IMG/VR virus record: IMGVR_UViG_3300025030_000039
Span: 188,878-252,877 of that record
Direction: 5' to 3' (one strand)
DNA: 64,000 nt
Source of the DNA: a virus
How positions within the stretch are numbered: the first letter of the stretch is position 1; each line of letters begins with the position of its first letter. Positions 11,067-62,262 of this stretch are shown in pieces. A program made the translations under genes and the position numbers. The notes under the pieces were generated by a model. It had not been told where the DNA came from, searched no databases, and saw only the letters and a program-made list of their open reading frames with translations.

Positions 11067-11636
11067 TTATTTTATAATTTCATCTATAACTCCTAATCTA
11101 AGGGCTTGTTTACTATTCATAGTCCAATCAATTTTATGAGTGTAAATTTTCTTAAGTTGTTTTTTAGATATTTTAGTTTTTTCAAGAGTTATTTTCTCAA
11201 GAAGTTTTTGTAATCTTTTTGTTTCATAAAACTCTTCTTCCATATCTTTAGCTTTACCCCAGAAACCATTACTTATTTGATGATATAATGGTGTTGATAA
11301 TTCATAACCAAATCTCTTATGTCCATTTATTAATATCATAAATCCGCACGACATAGCACAACCTGTAACAATAGTATAAATAGGTGTTTTACTTGTATTC
11401 ATTATAGATAATAAACCAAAACATTGATATACCATTCCTCCATAAGAATCAATATAAATTTTAATTGGTTTACGTTTATATTTAACATAATCTATTGCAT
11501 ATACTTTGGTAAGACGATCGTCTTCTTCATTAATTTCAATTATTCTTTCAGTTAATTTACCTATTGATTCTTGATCAACTTGCTTATTAAAATACAAATT
11601 TCTACCTGTTGGAATTTCTAATTTATTTTCTGCCAT
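11067..11636 (-). CDS. clpP: ClpP-family serine protease (S14), possibly a phage prohead or ATP-dependent protease subunit
   Basis: IYIDSYGGMVYQCFGLLSIM...TIVTGCAMSCGFMIL holds the nucleophilic Ser. The His is in LYHQISNGFWGKA and the Asp in DWTMNSKQALRLGVIDEII. Order and spacing match the ClpP catalytic triad. Confidence 0.8.
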   Translation of the reverse strand: MAENKLEIPTGRNLYFNKQVDQESIGKLTERIIEINEEDDRLTKVYAIDYVKYKRKPIKIYIDSYGGMVYQCFGLLSIMNTSKTPIYTIVTGCAMSCGFMILINGHKRFGYELSTPLYHQISNGFWGKAKDMEEEFYETKRLQKLLEKITLEKTKISKKQLKKIYTHKIDWTMNSKQALRLGVIDEIIK

Positions 11637-22090: not shown

Positions 22091-22978
22091 ATGAAAACAA
22101 AAAGATTTGATAGTTCAGAAGGTAATGTTTGGAAATATGTATTTGACTTTGAAAATGCAGTTGCCGAAGCGGTACTTTACAAATATGAAAACTTTTACAA
22201 AAGGACTGTACTTTGCGTGAGTGTGCAAAGTGGATGCCCTGTTGGTTGCAAATTTTGCGGAACTGGCAAAAAGTTTATTAGAAACCTTACAAACTTAGAA
22301 ATAGTTGCACAGGTTAAACATTGCTTAAAAGACATGAATATTGAAAATGTTAATTCGGCTAGTGATCGTTTCCAAATAATGTTTATGAGTATGGGTGAAC
22401 CTACTTTAAATATTGATAATGTAATAACGGCAATAAAGGATTTAAACAACTTATATCCAAATGCTGAATTACTTATTTCAACTATGGGGGCAAAAAACAA
22501 TACCGCTTTTGAAAAACTGTTAAAAGTAAGTATTGAAATACAAAAGGTTGGTTTGCAATTTTCAGTACATGAAGCATTTGAAGAAAAAAGAAACCAATTA
22601 ATATCATTTAAAAATAAATTGAATTTACGTGAAATGCGTGATTTTGGCATTGAGTGGAATAGGCAAACAAAACGCCCTGTATATGTGAATTATTGCATTG
22701 GAGAAACAAACCAAAGCAATGAAGAGATGGATAGGCTTAAAGACTTATTTAGCCCTGCTCTTTTCAATTTTACATTTTCGGTTATTTGCTCTTCTGATGA
22801 AAACATGAAAGATAAAGGATATAGAGAACTGAACAAGATAAACACAATTACTTCATCATTTGTTGAATGTGGTTATAATGTTCGAGTTTTCGACCCTGCT
22901 GGTCAAGATGATATTGGGGGCGGGTGCGGACAATTATGGTATGTACAAAACTGGATGCGTGACCATCATTACCGCTAA
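22091..22978 (+). CDS. RlmN/Cfr-family radical SAM RNA methyltransferase-like protein
   Basis: SVQSGCPVGCKFCGTG is the CX3CX2C radical-SAM motif in an RlmN-like context. FMSMGEPTLN and the C-terminal DIGGGCGQLWY resemble the conserved RlmN/Cfr Cys motifs. Confidence 0.8.
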   Translation: MKTKRFDSSEGNVWKYVFDFENAVAEAVLYKYENFYKRTVLCVSVQSGCPVGCKFCGTGKKFIRNLTNLEIVAQVKHCLKDMNIENVNSASDRFQIMFMSMGEPTLNIDNVITAIKDLNNLYPNAELLISTMGAKNNTAFEKLLKVSIEIQKVGLQFSVHEAFEEKRNQLISFKNKLNLREMRDFGIEWNRQTKRPVYVNYCIGETNQSNEEMDRLKDLFSPALFNFTFSVICSSDENMKDKGYRELNKINTITSSFVECGYNVRVFDPAGQDDIGGGCGQLWYVQNWMRDHHYR

Positions 22979-23095: not shown

Positions 23096-23746
23096 ATGGA
23101 ATATAACGATAAAAATGGATTAGAATTAATAGCTGAATTAGCTAAAGTTAGTACTGATAAGCTAATGAATTTAACTATTTTAATACTAAGTAGTAATAAA
23201 TTGACTTCTATACCAAAAGAGATAGGATTACTTACTAATTTAAGAGAATTACGTTTATCCAATAATGAATTAACATCTGTACCAAAAGAGATAGGAAATT
23301 TGGTAAATTTACAACATTTACATTTAAATAGTAATAAATTAACTTCTATACCATTAGAAATATTTAATCTTATAAAATTAACTAAATTATTATTATATAG
23401 TAATAAATTGACTTCTATACCAAAAGAGATAGGAAATTTAATAAATTTACAGCGTTTATTTTTAAGTTATAATGCATTGACTTCATTACCTAAAGAGATA
23501 GGAAATTTGGTAAATTTATGTGAATTACTATATACAAATACTAAGATGGTTTCAATACCTATTGAGTTAGTTAAGTTAAATGTTTTTCCAAAGTTAGATT
23601 TATCAGAATTAACTCTGCCGTTATGGGCTGAATTATTTCAAGAAGATAAATTTAAAGTTATTAAGCATAAAGATTTTCCAAAAGATTTAAGAAATCATCC
23701 ATGGTTTATTGATGTAGCTTATGCAGATGATTTTGGACTTATTTAA
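23096..23746 (+). CDS. leucine-rich repeat protein (bacterial-type LRR)
   Basis: At least six tandem 23-aa repeats of the form L(T)SIPKEIGNLVNLQ.L.L..N. Confidence 0.8.
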   Translation: MEYNDKNGLELIAELAKVSTDKLMNLTILILSSNKLTSIPKEIGLLTNLRELRLSNNELTSVPKEIGNLVNLQHLHLNSNKLTSIPLEIFNLIKLTKLLLYSNKLTSIPKEIGNLINLQRLFLSYNALTSLPKEIGNLVNLCELLYTNTKMVSIPIELVKLNVFPKLDLSELTLPLWAELFQEDKFKVIKHKDFPKDLRNHPWFIDVAYADDFGLI

Positions 23747-24296: not shown

Positions 24297-25445
24297 TTAT
24301 TCTATATTTGGATAATTAAAAAGTTTATTTTGATAGTTTTTAAGAATAAGATTTCCATTTTCATCTTTACCTTGATAGTATTCAGGAAGAATAGGAATTT
24401 TACCTCCTCCACCTGGAGCATCAATTACAAAGGTAGGTATAGCATAGCCTGAAGTATTACCTCTAAGATTAAACATTATTTCTATTCCTTTTTCGATTGA
24501 GGTTCTAAAATGTTCTGAACCTAGAATTGGATCACATTGATATAAATAGTACGGTCTAACTCTAACTTTAAGTAATTCATGAAATAATTTTTTAAGAATT
24601 AATGAGTCATCATTAATTCCTTTAAGTAATACCGTTTGAGATCCTAATGGAATTCCAGCATTTGCTAATAAGTTGCAAGCTTGTTTTACTTCAGGAGTAA
24701 TTTCATCTGGATGAGTAAAATGTATACTCATAAAAAGAGGATGATATTTTTGTAGAATATTTATTAGTTTTTTGTTTATTCTTTGTGGAAGTATAACTGG
24801 AACTTTGGTTCCAATTCTTATTATTTCAATATGTTTGATATTTCTAATAGTTGATAATAAATAATCAAGTTGTGAATCAGGTAAAGTTAATGGATCACCG
24901 CCAGAAATTATTACATCTCTTATTTCAGTATGTTCTCGCAAATAATTAAAAGCAGATTCCCAATTATTTAAATTTTTTTCTTTTGCTACAATATGAGAAC
25001 GTGTACAATATCTACAATATGTTGCACAAAAATCTGTTGCTAAAAATAAAACTCTATCTGGATATCGATGTATAATATTAGGTACCGGATTATCTTCATT
25101 TTCATTTAATGGATCTGATAATTCACCCTCATTTATATAATATTCATTTACAATCGGAATAACGCTTTTTCTTAATGATTGCAATGAATTATTTTTATCT
25201 ATTAAGCTAGAATAATAAGGTGTTATTCTTATAGGTAATGAATCTTTATTATTATCATTTATAGATTTTTCATTATCATTTAAATTAAAAAAATCATTTA
25301 ATTGTTTAATGTTTGTAATACTATTTTTTATTTGCCATCGCCAGTCATTCCACTGTTCTTTTGATGTATTAGGAAAATTTTCTTTTAAATATTCTATTGA
25401 TTTTTCACTAGGTTCTATAAGTGAGATATCATCATTTTTGTCCAT
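24297..25445 (-). CDS. KamA-family radical SAM aminomutase-like protein (lysine 2,3-aminomutase / EpmB family)
   Basis: N-terminal WNDWRWQIKN, LATDFCATYCRYCTRS (CX3CX2C in the KamA context) and C-terminal GGGGK. Confidence 0.8.
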   Translation of the reverse strand: MDKNDDISLIEPSEKSIEYLKENFPNTSKEQWNDWRWQIKNSITNIKQLNDFFNLNDNEKSINDNNKDSLPIRITPYYSSLIDKNNSLQSLRKSVIPIVNEYYINEGELSDPLNENEDNPVPNIIHRYPDRVLFLATDFCATYCRYCTRSHIVAKEKNLNNWESAFNYLREHTEIRDVIISGGDPLTLPDSQLDYLLSTIRNIKHIEIIRIGTKVPVILPQRINKKLINILQKYHPLFMSIHFTHPDEITPEVKQACNLLANAGIPLGSQTVLLKGINDDSLILKKLFHELLKVRVRPYYLYQCDPILGSEHFRTSIEKGIEIMFNLRGNTSGYAIPTFVIDAPGGGGKIPILPEYYQGKDENGNLILKNYQNKLFNYPNIE

Positions 25446-39067: not shown

Positions 39068-39334
39068 ATGAAAAACCTTTTAAAAATAAAAACACTTCTA
39101 AAAAATATTCCAGAAAAAGTATTATATGATTTTGATTTATTGAAATTATTAAGAGAAGTTCAAATTAATGCTGTAGAAGTATCATTAGAATTAGCGGCTA
39201 AATCAGCTACGACTAAAGATGATCCTAATTCTTATGCCGGAAATACTGGAAGTGAATGTTCTGCTGATATCATAGTTGATACAAAATCAATATTAGATTG
39301 TAGACAAACTTTAATTAATCAAATTTATGAATAG
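39068..39334 (+). CDS. hypothetical protein (88 aa)
   Basis: Track ORF. Confidence 0.35.
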   Translation: MKNLLKIKTLLKNIPEKVLYDFDLLKLLREVQINAVEVSLELAAKSATTKDDPNSYAGNTGSECSADIIVDTKSILDCRQTLINQIYE

Positions 39335-39839
39335 AAATTGGAGTAGAAAAGATCGTCATACTAGAAGAAAAATAAAAGGTATTATTGATAAAATAGAATT
39401 TGCTACTAAAGATATGCCTATAATACTTGAAGTTGTTGCATGTGGTTCTTATAGAAGGCAGTTTGATTATTGTGGTGATTTAAATATGTTATTTAAATTA
39501 TCAAATATTGATAAAGTTGGAGATGTTATTCCTATACTTATAAATAAAATAGGACCTGATGAAATATTAACACATGGAAAAAAGAAATCAAATATTTTAA
39601 TAAATAAAGTTCAAATTGATTTAAATTTCTCAAGTGTTGAATCATGGCCTTATGCTTTATTACATCATACTGGATCAGTCGAAGAAAGTATTAGGTTACG
39701 AAAAGTAGCAAAAAATAAAAATTTAAAACTAAATGAAAAAGGATTATATAATGAAAATGATGAATTAATTAAATTATCTTCAGAAAGAGATATTTATAAT
39801 TATTTAGGTATTGAATATAGAAGTCCAGAAAATAGATAA
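39327..39839 (+). CDS. minimal DNA polymerase X-like nucleotidyltransferase (palm and thumb only, 170 aa)
   Basis: VACGSYRRQFDYCGDLNML matches the Pol-beta GS.RRG...GDxD motif with the second Asp replaced by Asn. IDLNF, LLHHTGS, LNEKGLY and ERDIYNYLGIEYRSPENR match the Pol-beta palm and thumb motifs. The size recalls the ~174-aa minimal Pol X of African swine fever virus. Confidence 0.65.
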   Translation: MNRNWSRKDRHTRRKIKGIIDKIEFATKDMPIILEVVACGSYRRQFDYCGDLNMLFKLSNIDKVGDVIPILINKIGPDEILTHGKKKSNILINKVQIDLNFSSVESWPYALLHHTGSVEESIRLRKVAKNKNLKLNEKGLYNENDELIKLSSERDIYNYLGIEYRSPENR

Positions 39840-52851: not shown

Positions 52852-53685
52852 ATGGATTTAAGTTATGACCGCAGAATTTTACTAAATTATTCGAAAGAAA
52901 TAGAAAAAAGATTATTAACACAAGCAGAGGAAATTGAATGCTCATACATTATTCAAAATTCTCAACCTTGTGATCCAAGAAGAATTAGTGCTATTCAAAA
53001 ACTCGTAAAACATAATTTACGATATGGATTATCAGTTGCAAAACAATATCAGAATCAGGGACTCCCCTTACCTGATTTAATTAATGAAGCAAGTATTGGA
53101 TTAATCAAAGCAGCTGAACGATTTGATTATAGTACACATAAAACTAAATTTATAACATGTGCTGTTTCATGGATAAAACAATGCATCAAAGATGCACTAT
53201 GTGAACACGCAAGAACTGTAAGATTACCTAGACAGATTCATAATTATAAAAATGAATTTGAAAAACTTAAAAATAAACAAATAGCTGCAAATGGAGTTTA
53301 TGATATTGAAACAATTGCAGAAGAAATGATTGTACCAAAAAGAATAGTACATGATTTAGAAAAAATAACTCAATTTGGTGTATCATTAGATGAACCTGTA
53401 ATGGGAGAAGATGATGGACAAAGAACAAGATTAGATACTTATATTCCCGAATCTGAAAAAAATAATGATGAAAATGAAGATATCAAAAGAAAAATAAAAT
53501 ATGGATTGTCATTTTTAAAAGAAAGAGATCAAAATATTATGAAAGATGCATATGGTATAGATAGAGAATATGCATTAAGTATTGAAGATGTCGCAATAAA
53601 ACATGATTTAACTGAAGTAATGATTAGAAAAATAATGAGAGATTCATTAGATATGTTAAAATATCTTATTAATAAGAAAAAATAA
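52852..53685 (+). CDS. sigma-70 family RNA polymerase sigma factor
   Basis: Region 2 is unmistakable: LVKHNLRYGLSVAKQYQNQGLPLPDLINEASIGLIKAAERFDYSTHKTKFITCAVSWIKQCIKDAL...ARTVRLP. A region 4-like HTH (LSIEDVAIKHDLTEVMIRKIMRDSLDMLK) sits at the C-terminus. Confidence 0.85.
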   Translation: MDLSYDRRILLNYSKEIEKRLLTQAEEIECSYIIQNSQPCDPRRISAIQKLVKHNLRYGLSVAKQYQNQGLPLPDLINEASIGLIKAAERFDYSTHKTKFITCAVSWIKQCIKDALCEHARTVRLPRQIHNYKNEFEKLKNKQIAANGVYDIETIAEEMIVPKRIVHDLEKITQFGVSLDEPVMGEDDGQRTRLDTYIPESEKNNDENEDIKRKIKYGLSFLKERDQNIMKDAYGIDREYALSIEDVAIKHDLTEVMIRKIMRDSLDMLKYLINKKK

Positions 53686-55601: not shown

Positions 55602-56540
55602 ATGCCAAAGATATTAATGAATTTGGAACAAGCTTTAGATGTATTTAAACATATAATAGCAATAACTGGAGATCAAAATTTTCATTTAGCAGGATCAGCA
55701 AGAAGAGGTAAAAAAGAAAATTTAAAAGATTTAGATATAATCTATTTAGGAGATGAAATTCCTGATATAGAAAATGCTATTTATGTTGCAGATGGACCAT
55801 CATTAAAAAGAATTAAATTAAGATATGAATTTTCAAAAGGAATATTTGATTATGTTTCTATGGATATTCATATTGCGAATAAATTAAATTTCGGTTCTAC
55901 TCTTTTATATTTTACAGGTTCTCGGGAATTTAATATTAATATGAGAAAAAATGCTATGTCTAAAGGATGGAAACTCAATAGACATGGATTGTTTAATCAA
56001 AATAATGAATTAATAGCGGCTGAAAATGAAATAGATATTTTTTCAGCATTAGAAATTCCTTTTGTTAATCCTGTAGATAGAACAATATTTAAATCTGAAC
56101 AAGATGAAGAAAATCAAAAATTAATAAATACTATACGTCAATTAGCAATATTTCATGCTATTGAAGGTGATCATTATCGATCATCAGCATATTTTAAAGC
56201 ATCTTCATCATTACAAGAAATTGGTAATATCAAAAAATCAAAAGAAAATAACGAACTTATTTGTATAGATAATGTTGGAAATTCAATAGCAGCTAAAATC
56301 ATCGAATTTTTTGATACGGGTAAAATACATAAATTAGAAAAATTAAAAGAAACATATCCAGTTGATGTAGAAGGATTATTAAGTTTAGAAGGAGTTGGAT
56401 ACAAAAGCTTATTTAAATTTTATAAATTATTAGGAATAGAAACACTTGATGATTTAAAGAAAGCATGTAAAGAAAATAAAATAGCAAATCTTCAAGGATT
56501 TGGATTATCATCTCAAGAAAAAATATTAAATCAACTATGA
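55602..56540 (+). CDS. DNA polymerase X-like protein with apparently permuted domain order (palm and thumb first, then 8-kDa/HhH fingers)
   Basis: The N-terminal half has the Pol-beta motifs HLAGSARRGKKENLKDLDII (GS.RRG...D.D), LLYFTGSREFNINMRKNAMSKGWKLNRHGLF and ENEIDIFSALEIPFVNP. The C-terminal half holds IDNVGNSIAAKIIEFFDTGKIHKLEKL and LEGVGYKSLFKFYKLLGIETLDDL, helix-hairpin-helix motifs like the Pol-beta 8-kDa and fingers domains. Confidence 0.65.
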   Translation: MPKILMNLEQALDVFKHIIAITGDQNFHLAGSARRGKKENLKDLDIIYLGDEIPDIENAIYVADGPSLKRIKLRYEFSKGIFDYVSMDIHIANKLNFGSTLLYFTGSREFNINMRKNAMSKGWKLNRHGLFNQNNELIAAENEIDIFSALEIPFVNPVDRTIFKSEQDEENQKLINTIRQLAIFHAIEGDHYRSSAYFKASSSLQEIGNIKKSKENNELICIDNVGNSIAAKIIEFFDTGKIHKLEKLKETYPVDVEGLLSLEGVGYKSLFKFYKLLGIETLDDLKKACKENKIANLQGFGLSSQEKILNQL

Positions 56541-56621: not shown

Positions 56622-56822
56622 ATGAAAAAATGGGAAGAGATATTGAATAAAAAATTTCCTAACGAAGCTTTTGATAATGAATTAACAGCAATTCAAACTT
56701 ATTTATTAATAGCAGATTTAGATGAAGATGGAATTCCTACAAAGGACGAAATAAGAACATATTTAATTGAAATATTTGAAAAAGCATTTGAAAATAAATT
56801 TATGAATTGGGATAAAGTTTGA
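56622..56822 (+). CDS. hypothetical protein (66 aa)
   Basis: Track ORF. Confidence 0.35.
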   Translation: MKKWEEILNKKFPNEAFDNELTAIQTYLLIADLDEDGIPTKDEIRTYLIEIFEKAFENKFMNWDKV

Positions 56823-56826
56823 AGTT

Positions 56827-57183
56827 ATGACAGATACACAATTTACTAATTGGATAATAGATGAAGGAAAAGCAGCATTTGAATGGTATAATAATAAGCC
56901 ACAAGTTATAAAAGATTTAGTTAGAGCATATCCTTATTGTTTTGAATATATTATAAAAGAAAATGCTCCATATTCAATATCAGCGCCAGGCACTATTGTA
57001 AATATAGAATCTTATAGAGAAGATGAAACTGTTAGAGTATCATTTCCAACAAATAAACTAACAGAATCTGCTAAATTACATCTTATAGAATTATGTACCA
57101 AACACAATAAACCATTTCCTGCTGATAATATAATACAAGTAGTTATTATAGAACCTAAATATTTATTAAAAATTGAAAAATGA
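56827..57183 (+). CDS. hypothetical protein (118 aa)
   Basis: Track ORF. Confidence 0.4.
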   Translation: MTDTQFTNWIIDEGKAAFEWYNNKPQVIKDLVRAYPYCFEYIIKENAPYSISAPGTIVNIESYREDETVRVSFPTNKLTESAKLHLIELCTKHNKPFPADNIIQVVIIEPKYLLKIEK

Positions 57184-57383
57184 GCGACAAAAATAAAGAA
57201 ATTTATCAAATAGATACAGTAGATCATAGATTAGATTGTACAGGATATCAAGAAAGTAATTGTTGTGGAGCATTTATAGATTCAGATATTGATTTATGTC
57301 ACGATTGTAAAGAGCATGCTGATACAAGATGTACAGATTGTGATGAAAGTGAAGGTTGTCCAAATAAAAAATATTTCTCATGA
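57180..57383 (+). CDS. small acidic Cys-rich protein (67 aa; 10 Cys in the C-terminal 45 residues)
   Basis: Track ORF with CTGYQESNCCGAFIDSDIDLCHDCKEHADTRCTDCDESEGC. Confidence 0.4.
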   Translation: MSDKNKEIYQIDTVDHRLDCTGYQESNCCGAFIDSDIDLCHDCKEHADTRCTDCDESEGCPNKKYFS

Positions 57384-57916
57384 GTAATGAAATTAATATG
57401 ATTCCTATATTAGAAGGAAAAGGAATACAAGAATCAATATATGGGTTTGCTTCTTCTGAAAACTTTACTATTGAAGAATTATCTGAATCGCTTGTAAATT
57501 TTTTTATAGAAAAAAATATTACTAATTCAATAAATAATCTTATTCTGTTTCATGGTAAAATAGAAGATGCCACTACTAAAAATTTTAGTGTCATACCGTT
57601 AGCATTTCCAGGCAAAATAGATGATATTAAAACTGCTTTAATTGATTCTCCATTTAAATATATTTGTATTATCAGAATAAGAGAACAAGATACTTATATT
57701 AAAATCGGTACTATTTTTCAAATTGAAGAAAACAAAAAGAAATTTAATGCTATTTCTTTATCTGAAGTTTACGATTTAGATACAATTCCAGCCTTTATAG
57801 GTTTGTATATTGGAGAAGACAAAAAATCTAGAATTATAGAATTAATTAAAAAAGATAAAAATTGGATAATTAATCATAATTCAACAATAGAAGACTTAAC
57901 TAAACTATTAATTTGA
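57380..57916 (+). CDS. hypothetical protein (178 aa)
   Basis: Track ORF. Confidence 0.45.
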   Translation: MSNEINMIPILEGKGIQESIYGFASSENFTIEELSESLVNFFIEKNITNSINNLILFHGKIEDATTKNFSVIPLAFPGKIDDIKTALIDSPFKYICIIRIREQDTYIKIGTIFQIEENKKKFNAISLSEVYDLDTIPAFIGLYIGEDKKSRIIELIKKDKNWIINHNSTIEDLTKLLI

Positions 57917-57917
57917 T

Positions 57918-58172
57918 ATGGCTAGATTTAGTTTAAGAAATCAAAATAAAATCGAAAAAACTTTTGGATATGATTTTTTACAATGTTTGTTATCTTCATT
58001 AAAAAAGACTTTTGAAATTAATATAATAGAAGAACATACATATGAAAATGAAAAATATAAAATAATTCATTCTCATAATGTTCAAAAAAATTCAGATAGT
58101 TTTTTCGAGTTGTACATCATAAGTAAAACTTATGATGTATTTAATTTGGCTTATAAATCAACATGTGGTTAA
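57918..58172 (+). CDS. hypothetical protein (84 aa)
   Basis: Track ORF. Confidence 0.35.
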   Translation: MARFSLRNQNKIEKTFGYDFLQCLLSSLKKTFEINIIEEHTYENEKYKIIHSHNVQKNSDSFFELYIISKTYDVFNLAYKSTCG

Positions 58173-58542
58173 TATTATGGAAGCTTTTTATTTTTTTTTA
58201 TTTTTAGTATTTGTTTATTTATTTATAACTCTCTCACTTAAATATATTCATTATAATCAACAAAAAGATTATAATGAATATAAACGTATGATGGATGATA
58301 TCTATAAAGGTCTACAAAGTGAATTACTCAAGCGCCAACAAAAACAATATCCTAAAATTTTAAATGATAATGATAGAGAAAAAATTTATAATATTTATAA
58401 GCATTTTGTATTAAATACAGGTAATGAACAAGAAGTAGCTAAAATGCATTTAAATAAATTTCTAACTAAACATAAAATAACTCTAAATCAATTTTTAAAT
58501 GAATATAAAATACACGGAAAAGAAAAAATACTTAATAACTAA
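58132..58542 (+). CDS. membrane-anchored hypothetical protein (136 aa)
   Basis: Track ORF with an N-terminal hydrophobic helix. Confidence 0.4.
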   Translation: MMYLIWLINQHVVNIMEAFYFFLFLVFVYLFITLSLKYIHYNQQKDYNEYKRMMDDIYKGLQSELLKRQQKQYPKILNDNDREKIYNIYKHFVLNTGNEQEVAKMHLNKFLTKHKITLNQFLNEYKIHGKEKILNN

Positions 58543-58732
58543 AAAAGATTTAATTCAAATTTCTGGATTAATTATTTGCTTTTTAATAGGATATCTTTCT
58601 AGTAATAAATCTATAATAAAAGGAATTATAATGTCTTTATGTTATGGATTGTTAATGTTTTTGATAATATTTATTATAAAATTATACCAAAGAAAACAAA
58701 AACGTGATTTTTTCAAAAATATAAAATACTAA
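58499..58732 (+). CDS. small membrane protein (two TM segments)
   Basis: Track ORF. Confidence 0.35.
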   Translation: MNIKYTEKKKYLITKKDLIQISGLIICFLIGYLSSNKSIIKGIIMSLCYGLLMFLIIFIIKLYQRKQKRDFFKNIKY

Positions 58733-58899
58733 AACTTATGGAATATAAAGAATTTATAGATAAATGGCTGACCAAAAATTCAAATGAAAATAAAATTGAA
58801 TTTATTAATGATACAATAAAATTATGTAGAACAACAATTGATAAAAAAATATTATCGTTAATAGAATCAGGTGATTTAGAAATTGGCAAACAAACATAA

Positions 58900-59109
58900 A
58901 TGGAAAAATGTACTAGATGTGGTAAATGTTGCTTAGCTGCACCGTGTTGTTTAATTCCAATAGGAAAAGAAGTATATGAAAAAAAGGATGGTAAAAAAAT
59001 ACATAAATGTAAATTTTTTACATTCGATAAAAATCTTGCAAAATGCAGAGCATATAAATTAGTAAATAATGGAGGATTTTGTACATCTTCTATAAAAATA
59101 AAAGTTTAA
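58900..59109 (+). CDS. YkgJ/UPF0153-type CxxCxxCC putative Fe-S or zinc-chelating protein
   Basis: CTRCGKCCLAAPCC matches the CxxCGxCC signature of the UPF0153 family. There are additional Cys downstream. Confidence 0.5.
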   Translation: MEKCTRCGKCCLAAPCCLIPIGKEVYEKKDGKKIHKCKFFTFDKNLAKCRAYKLVNNGGFCTSSIKIKV

Positions 59110-59181
59110 ATACTTTAAATAAAATTTTTTCTATAATTTAAAAGTTATTATATTTATATAACGATTAAATAATTATAAAAT

Positions 59182-59958
59182 ATGCTAATAGATTTAACTT
59201 TAAAATGTAACGAACAATGTACTCATTGTATGGTAGATGCTCTTCCGACAGGTAAACATATGGAAGAAAAAACATTCATAGATTTATGTGGTTTCTTATT
59301 TATAATTAAACCTCCTATTGTTCAAATAAGCGGTGGTGAATTTACTCTTCATACTAATTTTTATGAGTATATTCAAAGATTAACTAATATGCTTCCAGAA
59401 AGTATGTTTTTACTTGAAAGCAATGGTTCATTTATAAATGATAAAGATAAAGTCAAAAAATTAAAAGATTTATTATCTATAAAAAATGTATATGGGCTTC
59501 AAATTAGAACTCATGAAAAATACTATCCAAACTTTGAAAATACAATGAAGAATCAAATGATTTTAAAATCATTACATCCTAAAGTTATGTTTTTCTCAGA
59601 TGGTATAGATGAGTTAGTTCCTATAGGAAGAGCAAAAACTAATTATCCAGATAACATAGCAACTAGAAGACCTCAGTGTTCAAATGTATTTTTATTAATT
59701 AAACAACCTGCTGCTAAAATAACTTCATTTAAAGAATTAATATTTACGTTACAAAGAAATGGAATATTCTGTAAACCTATGATTGATATCGAAGGAAATA
59801 TTAGAGCTGGTGAAACTCCATTTTGTCAAAAGTTTGGACATATTACCGATTCTTTAGATACTTTGTTCAATAATATTAAGAAAAGTGTACCGTGTGATGC
59901 TTGCGGATTAGTTAAAAATTACAAGCCTATAGAAAAATCTATTATATTCTCAGTTTAA
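59182..59958 (+). CDS. radical SAM protein (small, 4Fe-4S CX3CX2C plus SGGE motif), with extra C-terminal Cys residues
   Basis: LTLKCNEQCTHC is CX3CX2C. The QISGGEFTLH glycine-rich SAM-binding motif is typical of the activating-enzyme/QueE-like radical SAM subfamily. Five more Cys lie in the C-terminal third, ending in CDACG. Confidence 0.65.
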   Translation: MLIDLTLKCNEQCTHCMVDALPTGKHMEEKTFIDLCGFLFIIKPPIVQISGGEFTLHTNFYEYIQRLTNMLPESMFLLESNGSFINDKDKVKKLKDLLSIKNVYGLQIRTHEKYYPNFENTMKNQMILKSLHPKVMFFSDGIDELVPIGRAKTNYPDNIATRRPQCSNVFLLIKQPAAKITSFKELIFTLQRNGIFCKPMIDIEGNIRAGETPFCQKFGHITDSLDTLFNNIKKSVPCDACGLVKNYKPIEKSIIFSV

Positions 59959-61501: not shown

Positions 61502-61813
61502 ATGATTAAAGTAGATAGCATAGTTATTATTCAATATCTTAATAATAACTTTATTCAAACTAAAAAAATTATATCTACAGAACATTTATTATTTGTAAAA
61601 GCAAATTATAAAACATACATTTCACTTCCAAAAAAAGAACAAGACAAATTCAAAAGAGAAAATAAAATTGAATTAGAACCTTATTATGAAATTCCTGAAG
61701 TATCGCCAATGGGATCACCTATGATGAATTCTAAAATTGGCGATATTTGTGAAATGTATTTATCTGAAAATCAAGGAGGATATCATTACTTTAAAATCTT
61801 AAATATACAATGA
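61502..61813 (+). CDS. hypothetical protein (103 aa)
   Basis: Track ORF. Confidence 0.4.
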   Translation: MIKVDSIVIIQYLNNNFIQTKKIISTEHLLFVKANYKTYISLPKKEQDKFKRENKIELEPYYEIPEVSPMGSPMMNSKIGDICEMYLSENQGGYHYFKILNIQ

Positions 61814-62262
61814 AAACTTTATTATTAGATATAGATTATACAATGGCTCACGAACAGGAGCCAAGACCATTCTTAAAAGAATTTTTACTCACATTAAAAG
61901 AACAATACAACTTAGTTATTTATACAGGAGGTACTTCTAGTAGAGTAACAGACTTTCTAAGAATACTTTATCATAAATTAGAAATAAAAGATAGAGAATT
62001 TATACATGATTTACAAATTACAGCATTACATAGAGGTAATTGTGATTTAATTGAATATCCTACTTCTAGCTGTTCTTCAATTTATATTAAATGCTTAAAG
62101 AAAGCATCTGAAATATTAAATATTCCAGTTGAAGATCTTACTCTTATTGATGATACAGTTCATTGTGAAGACCCTTATATTAAACAAATTATTCAGGCTG
62201 AAGGATTCTATGGACAAGAAAATGATGATTATTTACAAAGACTTTTAAAACAATTAATATGA
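61810..62262 (+). CDS. HAD-superfamily phosphatase-like protein
   Basis: LLLDIDYTM is the DxDxT motif I. VIYTGGTSS is the motif II Ser/Thr. LIDDT is the motif IV DD. Confidence 0.55.
   Translation: MKTLLLDIDYTMAHEQEPRPFLKEFLLTLKEQYNLVIYTGGTSSRVTDFLRILYHKLEIKDREFIHDLQITALHRGNCDLIEYPTSSCSSIYIKCLKKASEILNIPVEDLTLIDDTVHCEDPYIKQIIQAEGFYGQENDDYLQRLLKQLI

What the first reader, a model, noticed from the sequence alone, without database searches (positions are those of the whole stretch)
57180..59958. Third radical-SAM enzyme next to a YkgJ-type CxxCxxCC protein and a Cys-rich acidic mini-protein: a possible peptide-modification (RiPP-like) or metallo-cofactor module
59182-59958 encodes a small radical SAM protein (CNEQCTHC plus SGGEFTLH) with five extra Cys in its C-terminal third. 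That tail could be a degenerate twitch/SPASM-type auxiliary cluster domain. Directly upstream is a 69-aa UPF0153/YkgJ-type Fe-S or zinc-chelating protein (CTRCGKCC...CC). About 1.5 kb upstream is a 67-aa acidic peptide with 10 Cys in 45 residues. Radical SAM maturases with auxiliary clusters commonly crosslink Cys-rich precursor peptides (sactipeptide or ranthipeptide logic). Alternatively this is a QueE/NrdG-like activating enzyme with an Fe-S carrier.
Basis: inference. Interest (0 to 1): 0.6.

Follow-up and report, generated by a model that had tools for sequence, protein, structure and literature searches.

The report
Stand-alone phage twitch radical-SAM enzyme
The radical-SAM gene is real and belongs to a sizeable, uncharacterised family of small two-cluster enzymes carried by phages and plasmids, but the two nearby cysteine-rich mini-proteins are one-off orphans that do not travel with it, so there is no evidence for a peptide-modification module.

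Summary
The window is part of LR756500.1, a 462-kb uncultured huge phage at about 23% GC. All three ORFs exist as described, with small corrections. The 67-aa peptide has 8 Cys, not 10, and lies 1.8 kb upstream.

ORF 59182-59958 is a genuine radical SAM enzyme. Its C-terminal part is a twitch-type auxiliary-cluster domain (C197-x12-G-x4-C215 ... C238-x2-C241) plus a fifth conserved Cys, C166. The AF2 model (pLDDT 85) matches EpeE/YydG, SkfB, BtrN and SpeY best. QueE, NrdG and PflA-type activases are poor matches.

The protein belongs to an unnamed family. It has at least 412 clusters at 50% identity, all about 250 aa, found on phage or plasmid-like DNA. Members include Bacteroides phage BS-TP1 gp91.

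Across 15 independent genomic contexts only the radical SAM gene is conserved. The 67-aa and 69-aa proteins have no homologue among 5.8 billion proteins and match no Pfam, NCBIfam or PHROG model. A small Cys-rich upstream neighbour occurs in 3 of 11 contexts, which is no more than background (P=0.15).

The RiPP module, the YkgJ assignment and the activase alternative are unsupported. The enzyme's substrate is unknown. Interest is moderate to low.

The parts
59182..59958 (+). 258-aa radical SAM enzyme with a C-terminal twitch-type domain. It belongs to an unnamed family carried on mobile genetic elements.
59206..59229 (+). Codons for C9-x3-C13-x-H15-C16, the radical SAM [4Fe-4S] motif (CNEQCTHC).
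   Evidence: C9, C13, H15 and C16 are present in every family member that is not N-terminally truncated. EpeE also has a CxxxCxHC motif (alignment).
59332..59340 (+). Codons for G51-G52-E53, the GGE SAM-binding motif.
   Evidence: G51 and G52 are present in 160 of 162 members. E53 is present in 153 of 162.
59677..59679 (+). Codon for C166 (motif P-x-C-x-N), a fifth conserved Cys outside the four-Cys twitch motif. It is proposed to be catalytic or an extra ligand.
   Evidence: Cys in 160 of 162 members. HMMER pairs it with EpeE C223 in 'PCCS', but only at 2.7 bits, which is not significant.
59770..59904 (+). Twitch-type auxiliary cluster region: C197-x12-G210-x4-C215, a predicted beta-hairpin (206-208 and 217-220), a helix (225-234), then C238-x2-C241.
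   Evidence: Cys conservation is 157-160 of 162. The regex CX9-15GX4C..CX2C matches 123 of 162 members, and the full SPASM CX2CX5CX3C matches 0 of 162. Secondary structure is from the model. Motif definitions are from PMC6231123.
59110..59181 (.). 72-nt AT-rich spacer between the 69-aa gene and the radical SAM gene. It carries five in-frame TAA codons.
   Evidence: By contrast, the genes from 56622 to 59109 abut or overlap.
58900..59109 (+). 69-aa basic (pI 9.4) ORFan with 9 Cys and an N-terminal CxxCGxCC motif. It is probably a small metal-binding protein and is not a conserved partner of the radical SAM gene.
   Evidence: It finds only itself among 5.8e9 proteins. It has no Pfam hit at E<=10 and no PHROG or PADLOC hit. 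PDB and phage tblastn give nothing significant. The single-sequence AF2 model is unusable, pLDDT 54.
57180..57383 (+). 67-aa acidic (pI 4.4) ORFan with 8 Cys, including CxxC-x7-CxxC. It is probably a small zinc-binding protein. It overlaps both neighbouring genes by 4 nt and is not linked to the radical SAM family.
   Evidence: It finds only itself. It has no Pfam, NCBIfam or PHROG hit. Its only resemblance is a non-significant one to ZZ-type zinc fingers, E 1.8.
57380..58899 (+). Five intervening small ORFs (178, 84, 136, 77 and 53 aa). Two are predicted membrane proteins. None is a protease, a transporter or a RiPP recognition element protein.
   Evidence: Only weak or unknown-function matches were found: phrog_13941, and DUF3792 below its cut-off.

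Best explanation
ORF 59182-59958 is a stand-alone accessory gene of a huge phage. It encodes a minimal (about 250 aa) two-cluster radical SAM enzyme of the twitch subclass.

Inferred mechanism:
1. The N-terminal C9/C13/C16 [4Fe-4S] cluster binds SAM and cleaves it reductively to the 5'-deoxyadenosyl radical.
2. That radical abstracts an H atom from the substrate.
3. C197, C215, C238 and C241 ligate one auxiliary [4Fe-4S] cluster, which relays electrons.
4. The fifth, near-universal Cys (C166, on the loop after the last core strand) acts as an H-atom donor or thiyl relay, as C223 does in the closest characterised relative, the peptide epimerase EpeE/YydG.

My estimates for the chemistry are about 35% for an EpeE-like H-abstraction and H-return reaction on a peptide or protein substrate. 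They are about 25% for a BtrN/SpeY-like two-electron oxidation of a small molecule, and about 40% for something else.

The substrate is not encoded next to the gene. It is a host or phage molecule specified elsewhere.

The 69-aa and 67-aa Cys-rich proteins are lineage-specific small metal-binding ORFans of this phage. They sit nearby by chance and are not part of a conserved system with the enzyme.

Shown here: radical SAM membership, the twitch motif and fold, conservation of five Cys, the size of the family and its location on mobile elements, and the absence of conserved neighbours. Inferred only: cluster occupancy, the role of C166, and the chemistry and substrate.
For: Identity of the enzyme:
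- Pfam Radical_SAM scores above its gathering cut-off.
- A profile search finds 412 cluster representatives at E<=1e-30, all full-length at 170-313 aa.
- C166, C197, C215, C238 and C241 are each present in 157-160 of 162 members. H15 is universal. CX12GX4C...CX2C is present, and the full SPASM motif is found in 0 of 162.
- The AF2 model has pLDDT 84.9 and shows a beta-hairpin plus helix between the Cys pairs.

Closest relatives:
- Foldseek gives EpeE at 7e-9 and BtrN at 4e-7 with TM 0.57/0.60.
- A PDB profile search gives EpeE at E=8.5e-17. The next hit, a viperin-like enzyme, is at 4e-9.
- Twitch and SPASM definitions and the Cys4 ligation of BtrN come from PMC6231123 and PMC10337720. The role of EpeE C223 comes from PMC13012085.

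Stand-alone nature:
- Across 15 independent contexts, only the radical SAM gene is shared.
- In the P0008 contigs it is a lone + strand gene inside a - strand block.
- In this window it is flanked by 72-nt and 118-nt spacers, whereas the upstream genes are tightly packed.
- The surrounding genes are typical of mobile elements: GP88, YopX, PcfJ/K, Rep3, ParA, DNA methyltransferase, TnpB and a tailspike-like beta-helix.
- Annotated members are Bacteroides phage BS-TP1 gp91, Selenomonas pSRC4 and a Photobacterium megaplasmid.

Small proteins:
- Both are ORFans.
Against: - No biochemical data exist for any family member.
- The alignment of C166 with EpeE C223 scores only 2.7 bits and is not significant. 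EpeE's essential D210 aligns with an Ala in the family's GRA motif.
- Three of 11 contexts do have an unrelated small Cys-rich ORF immediately upstream (window, L001 group, L006). A non-homologous but analogous partner therefore cannot be fully excluded, although P=0.15 against background.
- The context sample is small (15 lineages), and most contigs are short.
Confidence: 0.7

Rival explanations
1. RiPP-like module. The radical SAM enzyme crosslinks or otherwise modifies the adjacent 69-aa protein, or the 67-aa acidic peptide, as a precursor (sactipeptide, ranthipeptide or SCIFF logic).
For: - The closest structural and sequence relatives are RiPP maturases: EpeE, SkfB, SuiB and CteB.
- A Cys-rich 69-aa ORF lies 72 nt upstream on the same strand.
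- Unrelated small Cys4-6 ORFs lie immediately upstream in two other lineages, L001 (75 aa) and L006 (81 aa).
Against: - Both peptides are ORFans with no homologue next to any of the family members examined, or anywhere else.
- The closest homologue (49% identity, L005) and most other lineages have non-Cys-rich neighbours or none.
- Small Cys-rich upstream ORFs are not enriched over background: 3 of 11 against 12.6%, P=0.15.
- The 67-aa gene is 1.8 kb away, with five other ORFs and then the 69-aa gene in between.
- No SCIFF or other precursor model matches at E<=1.
- There is no RiPP recognition element. The cluster motif starts at residue 9.
- No protease or exporter is nearby.
- The window holds several other small CxxC-pair proteins.
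Confidence: 0.07
2. An activating enzyme of the QueE, NrdG or PflA type, working with the 69-aa protein as a YkgJ-type Fe-S or zinc carrier.
For: - The 69-aa protein has the CxxCGxCC motif plus later C-x-F and C-x-x-Y elements that recall PF03692 (sequence).
- The enzyme is small, which fits an activase.
Against: - NrdG2 scores 11.7 bits against a cut-off of 131.15, and YjjW activase reaches only E 0.011.
- Foldseek gives QueE E 9.5e-3 with TM 0.33.
- Glycyl-radical activases and QueE lack the conserved CX12GX4C...CX2C tail that this family keeps.
- No ORF in the window is longer than 483 aa, so none is NrdD- or PFL-sized.
- No 7-deazaguanine genes were found among the ORFs scanned.
- PF03692 does not match the 69-aa protein at E<=10.
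- The 69-aa protein is absent from all other contexts.
Confidence: 0.03
3. A BtrN/SpeY-like twitch dehydrogenase, or a viperin/MoaA-like nucleotide-modifying enzyme. It would act on a small molecule (sugar, aminocyclitol or nucleotide), for example to modify phage DNA precursors or to counter host immunity, rather than on a peptide.
For: - It has the same size and Cys4 twitch layout as BtrN. Foldseek TM is 0.57/0.60, the best target-normalised score.
- SpeY, viperin and MoaA are among the hits.
- pVip is the only PADLOC hit, at E 1e-4 and over the N-terminal part only.
- Neighbours are often DNA or nucleotide-metabolism genes: Pol X, ligase, ExoVII, thymidylate synthase, dUTPase and DNA methyltransferase.
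- No peptide partner is conserved.
Against: - Sequence similarity to EpeE exceeds that to viperin-like enzymes by about 8 orders of magnitude in E-value, and that to SpeY by about 12.
- The extra conserved C166 has no counterpart that I know of in BtrN (from memory, not tested).
- No sugar or nucleotide pathway gene is consistently adjacent.
Confidence: 0.2

Closest known systems
EpeE / YydG, the radical SAM peptide epimerase of Bacillus subtilis (PDB 8AI1-8AI6; NCBIfam TIGR04078)
   Different: Identity is only about 20%. The TIGR04078 score is 34.9 against a cut-off of 300. The protein is about 60 residues shorter (258 against 319 aa, recalled), so the domain is less extended than EpeE's 'T-SPASM'. 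EpeE D210 is replaced by Ala in the invariant GRA motif (weak alignment). There are no epeX-like precursor, protease or ABC transporter genes. The gene is carried by phages and plasmids.
BtrN (2-deoxy-scyllo-inosamine dehydrogenase) and SpeY, twitch radical SAM dehydrogenases
   Different: Identity is 13-16%. Neither BtrN nor SpeY appears in the profile search at a level comparable to EpeE (SpeY is at 3.4e-5). There is no aminoglycoside or spectinomycin gene cluster. This family has an additional conserved C166.
SkfB, a twitch sactisynthase, and the SPASM maturases (SuiB, CteB, anSME, PqqE)
   Different: This family has no RiPP recognition element domain and no second auxiliary cluster (CX2CX5CX3C in 0 of 162). 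The Pfam SPASM HMM matches 1 of 68 members. No precursor peptide is conserved.
YkgJ / UPF0153 (Pfam PF03692, CxxCxxCC), considered for the 69-aa protein
   Same: The 69-aa protein has an N-terminal CxxCGxCC motif and later Cys residues next to aromatic residues.
   Different: No HMM match was found even at E<=10. At 69 aa it is shorter than the domain, and it has no detectable homologues at all.

Membership tests
Radical SAM superfamily (PF04055) | A CX3CX(aromatic)C motif that ligates the SAM-binding [4Fe-4S] cluster | tested here: met
   The motif is C9-NEQ-C13-T-H15-C16. It is present in all members that are not N-terminally truncated.
Radical SAM superfamily (PF04055) | An HMM score above the curated cut-off, plus the GGE and ribose motifs | tested here: met
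   The score is 36.8 bits against a cut-off of 29.5, and 68 of 68 family members match. G51-G52-E53 and S80-N81-G82 are conserved.
Radical SAM superfamily (PF04055) | A partial TIM-barrel fold | tested here: met
Twitch-domain radical SAM subclass | The first four Cys of the seven-Cys SPASM motif (CX9-15GX4C - gap - CX2C), with the remainder absent | tested here: met
   The motif reads C197-x12-G210-x4-C215 ... C238-x2-C241. Each Cys is present in 157-160 of 162 members, and CX2CX5CX3C occurs in 0 of 162. The definition comes from PMC6231123.
Twitch-domain radical SAM subclass | A beta-hairpin followed by a helix that carries the ligands, with a fold similar to solved twitch enzymes | tested here: met
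Twitch-domain radical SAM subclass | Binds exactly one auxiliary Fe-S cluster | not testable with these tools
   This needs Fe/S quantitation, EPR or Mossbauer spectroscopy, or a crystal structure.
Full SPASM domain (PF13186 / TIGR04085) | The seven-Cys motif including CX2CX5CX3C, with two auxiliary clusters | tested here: not met
   The regex matches 0 of 162 members. The Pfam SPASM HMM matches 1 of 68 at E<0.01 and does not match the window protein.
YydG/EpeE epimerase family (TIGR04078) | An equivalog HMM score above the cut-off | tested here: not met
   The score is 34.9 bits against a cut-off of 300, and only the N-terminal 128 residues match.
YydG/EpeE epimerase family (TIGR04078) | An operon with a short precursor peptide, a protease and an ABC transporter (epeXEPAB) | tested here: not met
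   No such genes lie near the window gene or in the 15 contexts.
RiPP biosynthetic module (sacti-, ranthi- or SCIFF-type) | A precursor peptide gene adjacent to the maturase and co-conserved with it | tested here: not met
   The 67-aa and 69-aa proteins have no homologues. No neighbour is shared across the 15 contexts. No NCBIfam precursor model matches at E<=1.
RiPP biosynthetic module (sacti-, ranthi- or SCIFF-type) | A RiPP recognition element on or beside the maturase | tested here: not met
   The radical SAM motif starts at residue 9, which leaves no N-terminal domain. No RiPP-recognition-element-type Pfam hit was found on the neighbours. EpeE also lacks one, so this feature alone is not excluding.
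Glycyl-radical activases (NrdG, PflA) and QueE | Family HMM or fold similarity, and a partner gene nearby | tested here: not met
YkgJ / UPF0153 (PF03692), for the 69-aa protein | A match to the family HMM | tested here: not met
   No Pfam family matched at E<=10. HMMER's speed filters could hide a very weak match.
YkgJ / UPF0153 (PF03692), for the 69-aa protein | An N-terminal CxxCxxCC motif | tested here: met
   Residues 4-11 read C-TR-C-GK-CC. This is a motif only. It is short and not specific.

The most novel reading that the evidence does not exclude
The enzyme represents a large family (at least 412 clusters at 50% identity) of minimal twitch radical SAM enzymes that is restricted to mobile elements. 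On this reading, phages and plasmids use it to chemically alter a host or phage macromolecule that is not encoded beside it. One example would be EpeE-like Calpha epimerisation, or another radical edit, of a host protein as a takeover or anti-defence function. That would be a new biological role, and possibly new chemistry, for twitch enzymes. It could be tested genetically in the cultured Bacteroides phage BS-TP1 (gp91).
Probability: 0.25. Interest if true: 0.65.

Novelty: new member of a known kind. Interest (0 to 1): 0.33.

Why it matters
The proposed RiPP or metallo-cofactor module does not exist as a conserved system, so the locus needs no follow-up on that basis.

What remains is a well-defined radical SAM subfamily of unknown function. 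It is compact, carries two clusters and has five conserved C-terminal Cys. No curated model (Pfam C-terminal domain, NCBIfam or PHROG) describes it. It recurs as a solitary gene on phages, phage-plasmids and megaplasmids of Bacteroidota, Negativicutes and Vibrionaceae.

Its nearest characterised relative is a peptide epimerase. Finding its substrate could reveal a way in which mobile elements edit host or their own molecules by radical chemistry. A cultured phage that carries a member (BS-TP1) makes this experimentally approachable.

Tried and rejected
1. Fusion of the 69-aa ORF with the radical SAM ORF by stop-codon recoding. They are in the same frame, but five TAA codons lie in the 72-nt spacer, so I rejected it.
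2. Homology between the small upstream ORFs of different lineages (window 69 aa, L001 75 aa, L006 81 aa). BLASTP found no match at E<=1e-2.
3. Enrichment of small Cys-rich ORFs immediately upstream. It is not significant: 3 of 11 against a 12.6% background, P=0.15.
4. Single-sequence AF2 of the 69-aa protein. The pLDDT was 54, which is unusable, so I ran no fold search on it.
5. PDB and phage tblastn searches with both small proteins at E<=10. Only noise came back.
6. Scans of IMG/VR viral contigs and GTDB genome contigs with motif patterns. No relatives were found. These scans need exact degenerate motifs, so this is weak evidence of absence. One search failed for lack of a conserved stretch.
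7. The afdb50 fold library was not available.
8. BS-TP1 gp90, annotated 'Mrp/Nbp35 family', as a possible Fe-S carrier partner. It groups with a ParA-like gene on a Rep3 plasmid-like contig (L011) and is absent elsewhere, so I rejected it.
9. Flanking repeats or insertion scars around the radical SAM gene. Only AT-rich noise was found.
10. Promoter and terminator scans. Promoter-like sites were fewer than in shuffled sequence, so the scan was uninformative.
11. Literature searches for phage radical SAM functions or anti-defence roles. Nothing relevant was found.
12. Model coordinates are not exposed to scripts, so Cys-Cys distances and the position of C166 could not be measured.


Full report
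**Source and setting.** The radical SAM ORF is 100% identical to positions 447379-448152 of LR756500.1, an unannotated 462,018-bp 'uncultured phage' genome. The window is 21-30% GC throughout. It has no tRNA genes. It is packed with short ORFs, mostly on the + strand. Recognisable genes include:
- a glycosyltransferase, an LRR protein, a peptidase C26 and a metallophosphatase
- ClpP, a sigma-70 factor and an NIF-type phosphatase
- two Pol X-like genes
- two other radical SAM genes: an RlmN/Cfr-like gene at 22091-22978 and a KamA-family aminomutase at 24297-25445(-).

The 'third radical SAM' description is therefore correct.

**The observation.** All three ORFs exist at the stated coordinates.
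- The 258-aa protein has Cys at positions 9, 13, 16, 36, 166, 197, 215, 238 and 241.
- The 69-aa protein has 9 Cys and pI 9.4.
- The 67-aa protein has 8 Cys at positions 20-60, not 10, and pI 4.4.
- The 67-aa gene overlaps both neighbours by 4 nt.
- The 69-aa gene starts directly after the preceding stop codon.
- The radical SAM gene is set apart by a 72-nt spacer upstream and a 118-nt spacer downstream.
- The 69-aa and radical SAM ORFs share a frame, but five TAA codons separate them, so a recoded fusion is excluded.

**What the enzyme is.** Pfam Radical_SAM scores 36.8 bits against a cut-off of 29.5. The best NCBIfam hits are YydG, HxsC, ArsS, MoaA and NirJ. All are SPASM/twitch-clade enzymes, all match the N-terminal half only, and all fall far below their cut-offs.

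A word-indexed search found 17 homologues. A full HMM search with their alignment found 412 representatives of 50%-identity clusters at E<=1e-30 and 851 at E<=1e-10. All listed hits are full length. None carries a name. No NCBIfam model reaches its cut-off on 68 diverse members. Pfam sees only Radical_SAM and Fer4_12 on them, and the SPASM model matches 1 of 68.

I aligned 162 members to a family HMM.
- C9, C13, H15 and C16 are universal.
- C166 is present in 160 members, C197 in 158, C215 in 160, C238 in 157 and C241 in 160.
- The pattern C-x12-G-x4-C ... C-x2-C occurs in 123 of 162. Most of the others have Ser in place of Gly.
- The distal SPASM element CX2CX5CX3C occurs in none.

According to PMC6231123, the SPASM motif is CX9-15GX4C-gap-CX2CX5CX3C-gap-C. 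A twitch domain is its truncated form that binds one cluster. Its ligands lie before and after a beta-hairpin and after the following helix.

The AF2 model (pLDDT 84.9, pTM 0.85) has that layout, as far as its secondary-structure summary shows: C197, strands 206-208 and 217-220 with C215, helix 225-234, then C238 and C241.

Structural matches:
- Foldseek agrees. EpeE is at 7e-9, BtrN at 4e-7 with TM 0.57/0.60, then SpeY. QueE is at 9.5e-3 with TM 0.33.
- A PDB profile search puts EpeE at E=8.5e-17, about eight orders of magnitude ahead of the next hit.

The QueE/NrdG alternative does not.

**The proposed partners.** The 69-aa and 67-aa proteins each find only themselves among 5.8 billion proteins. 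Neither matches Pfam even at E<=10, NCBIfam at E<=1, PHROGs or PADLOC. PDB and phage tblastn searches returned only noise. The YkgJ label for the 69-aa protein therefore rests on an eight-residue motif alone. Its single-sequence model was unusable. The window contains several other small proteins with CxxC pairs, so such genes are common in this phage.

**Genomic contexts of the family.** I collected 23 loci. They fall into 15 independent lineages, with GC from 24% to 48%. All-against-all BLASTP of every ORF of 40 aa or more shows that only the radical SAM gene is shared across lineages. The exceptions are:
- antisense shadow ORFs of the radical SAM gene itself
- TnpB transposases in three lineages
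- a ParA-like gene in two lineages
- a Rossmann-type methyltransferase-like gene in two lineages (L021 and L014).

None of the window's neighbours recurs anywhere. The closest homologue (49% identity, L005) has a non-Cys-rich upstream gene. In the P0008 contigs the gene is a lone + strand ORF inside a - strand block. A small ORF with at least 4 Cys and at least one CxxC lies immediately upstream in 3 of 11 lineages. The background among small ORFs in the same loci is 12.6%, giving P=0.15.

The contexts are phage- or plasmid-like. They include GP88, YopX, SNase, PcfJ/K, Rep3, ParA, DNA methyltransferases, a beta-helix tailspike, ExoVII, thymidylate synthase and dUTPase. Annotated members are gp91 of the cultured Bacteroides phage BS-TP1, a gene on Selenomonas ruminantium pSRC4, and one on a Photobacterium damselae megaplasmid. 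All three score E 1e-55 to 1e-74 against the family HMM and keep all five Cys. Motif-based scans of IMG/VR and of GTDB species genomes found no members. These scans have limited sensitivity.

**Most likely mechanism.**
- Shown here: radical SAM core, twitch motif and fold, five conserved C-terminal Cys, a solitary gene carried on mobile elements.
- Inferred: the C9/C13/C16 cluster cleaves SAM to the 5'-deoxyadenosyl radical, which abstracts a substrate H atom. C197, C215, C238 and C241 fully ligate one auxiliary [4Fe-4S] cluster, as in BtrN (Cys4 ligation and a proposed electron-transfer role, PMC10337720).
- Inferred: C166 lies in a P-x-C-x-N loop after the invariant G-R-A motif. It is a candidate H-atom donor, like EpeE C223, which sits opposite SAM and quenches the Calpha radical (PMC13012085).
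- HMMER does pair GRA...PxC with EpeE's GYD(210)...PCC(223). The score is only 2.7 bits, so I treat this as a lead, not evidence.

I rate an EpeE-like H-abstraction and H-return reaction on a peptide or protein at about 35%. I rate a BtrN/SpeY-like oxidation of a small molecule at about 25%, and other chemistry at about 40%. Because no neighbour is conserved, the substrate must be encoded elsewhere or supplied by the host.

**Comparison with known systems, and novelty.** The protein is a member of the radical SAM superfamily and, by motif and predicted fold, of the twitch subclass. It is not a member of the YydG equivalog family, the full SPASM group, the glycyl-radical activases or QueE (see the membership table). 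The family itself is undescribed in the curated libraries searched. It is best filed as a new member, or subfamily, of a known kind.

The three-gene module is not a real feature. Phage genomes commonly carry radical SAM genes of unknown role. The BFVD hits include several Campylobacter phage proteins, at 11-23% identity to this one. A specialist would therefore not be very surprised.

The points of interest are the size of the family, its restriction to mobile elements, its nearest relative being a peptide epimerase, and the existence of a cultured phage in which to test it.

**Verdict.** The twitch-domain inference is correct. The RiPP/metallo-cofactor module, the YkgJ assignment and the activase alternative are unsupported. 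Interest is 0.33.

Noticed in passing
window 55602-56540 (+) and 39327-39839 (+): There are two Pol X-like genes with unusual architecture. The 312-aa protein appears to have a palm-like N-terminus (GSxRRGK...DLD) and the Pol-beta thumb at residues 100-160. The HHH_8 (8-kDa lyase-type) and fingers/HhH domains follow at residues 170-312. That order would be circularly permuted relative to canonical Pol beta/X. A second, 170-aa ORF holds palm plus thumb only.
   Followed up: no
window 24297-25445 (-): A phage-encoded KamA-family amino-acid 2,3-aminomutase. It scores 455.8 bits against AblA, whose cut-off is 525, and it passes the KamA subfamily cut-off. It also matches the glutamate, arginine and EpmB models. 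Its role in a phage is unclear.
   Followed up: partly
window 22091-22978 (+): An RlmN/Cfr-like radical SAM RNA methyltransferase of only 295 aa. It matches the RlmN and Cfr models from about position 75 onward, so it lacks the N-terminal domain, and it scores far below the equivalog cut-offs. An LRR protein lies next to it at 23096-23746.
   Followed up: partly
L021 5807-6379 (Bacteroides phage BS-TP1 gp92) and L014 6974-7720: A Rossmann-type (GLGLG) methyltransferase-like protein lies directly downstream of the radical SAM gene in BS-TP1 and 1.2 kb downstream in an unrelated metagenomic contig. The two share 38% identity, E 5e-23. It is the only non-trivial neighbour shared by two lineages, and it is absent from the other 13.
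   Followed up: partly
L009 12743-13795, L017 1483-2772 (-), L023 7553-8788: TnpB / IS605 OrfB-type transposase genes lie within 0.3-4 kb of the radical SAM gene in three independent lineages. This suggests that the gene sits in variable accessory regions.
   Followed up: no
radical SAM family, collection scans: Members are readily found in JGI, Logan and ENA metagenome contigs, but motif-pattern scans of IMG/VR (four scans) and GTDB species genomes (two scans) found none. Among 50,697 GenBank phage genomes, tblastn with two family members found the family only in LR756500.1 and BS-TP1.
   Followed up: partly
window 58243-58282 and 58112-58140: A perfect 16-nt inverted repeat with an 8-nt loop lies inside ORF 58132-58542. 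A terminator-like hairpin with a 13-bp stem lies at the junction of ORFs 57918-58172 and 58132-58542. The significance of both is unknown.
   Followed up: no
window 11067-11636 (-), 52852-53685 (+), 61810-62262 (+): The phage encodes a ClpP-like protease, a sigma-70-type factor (regions 2 and 4) and an NIF/FCP1-like phosphatase.
   Followed up: no
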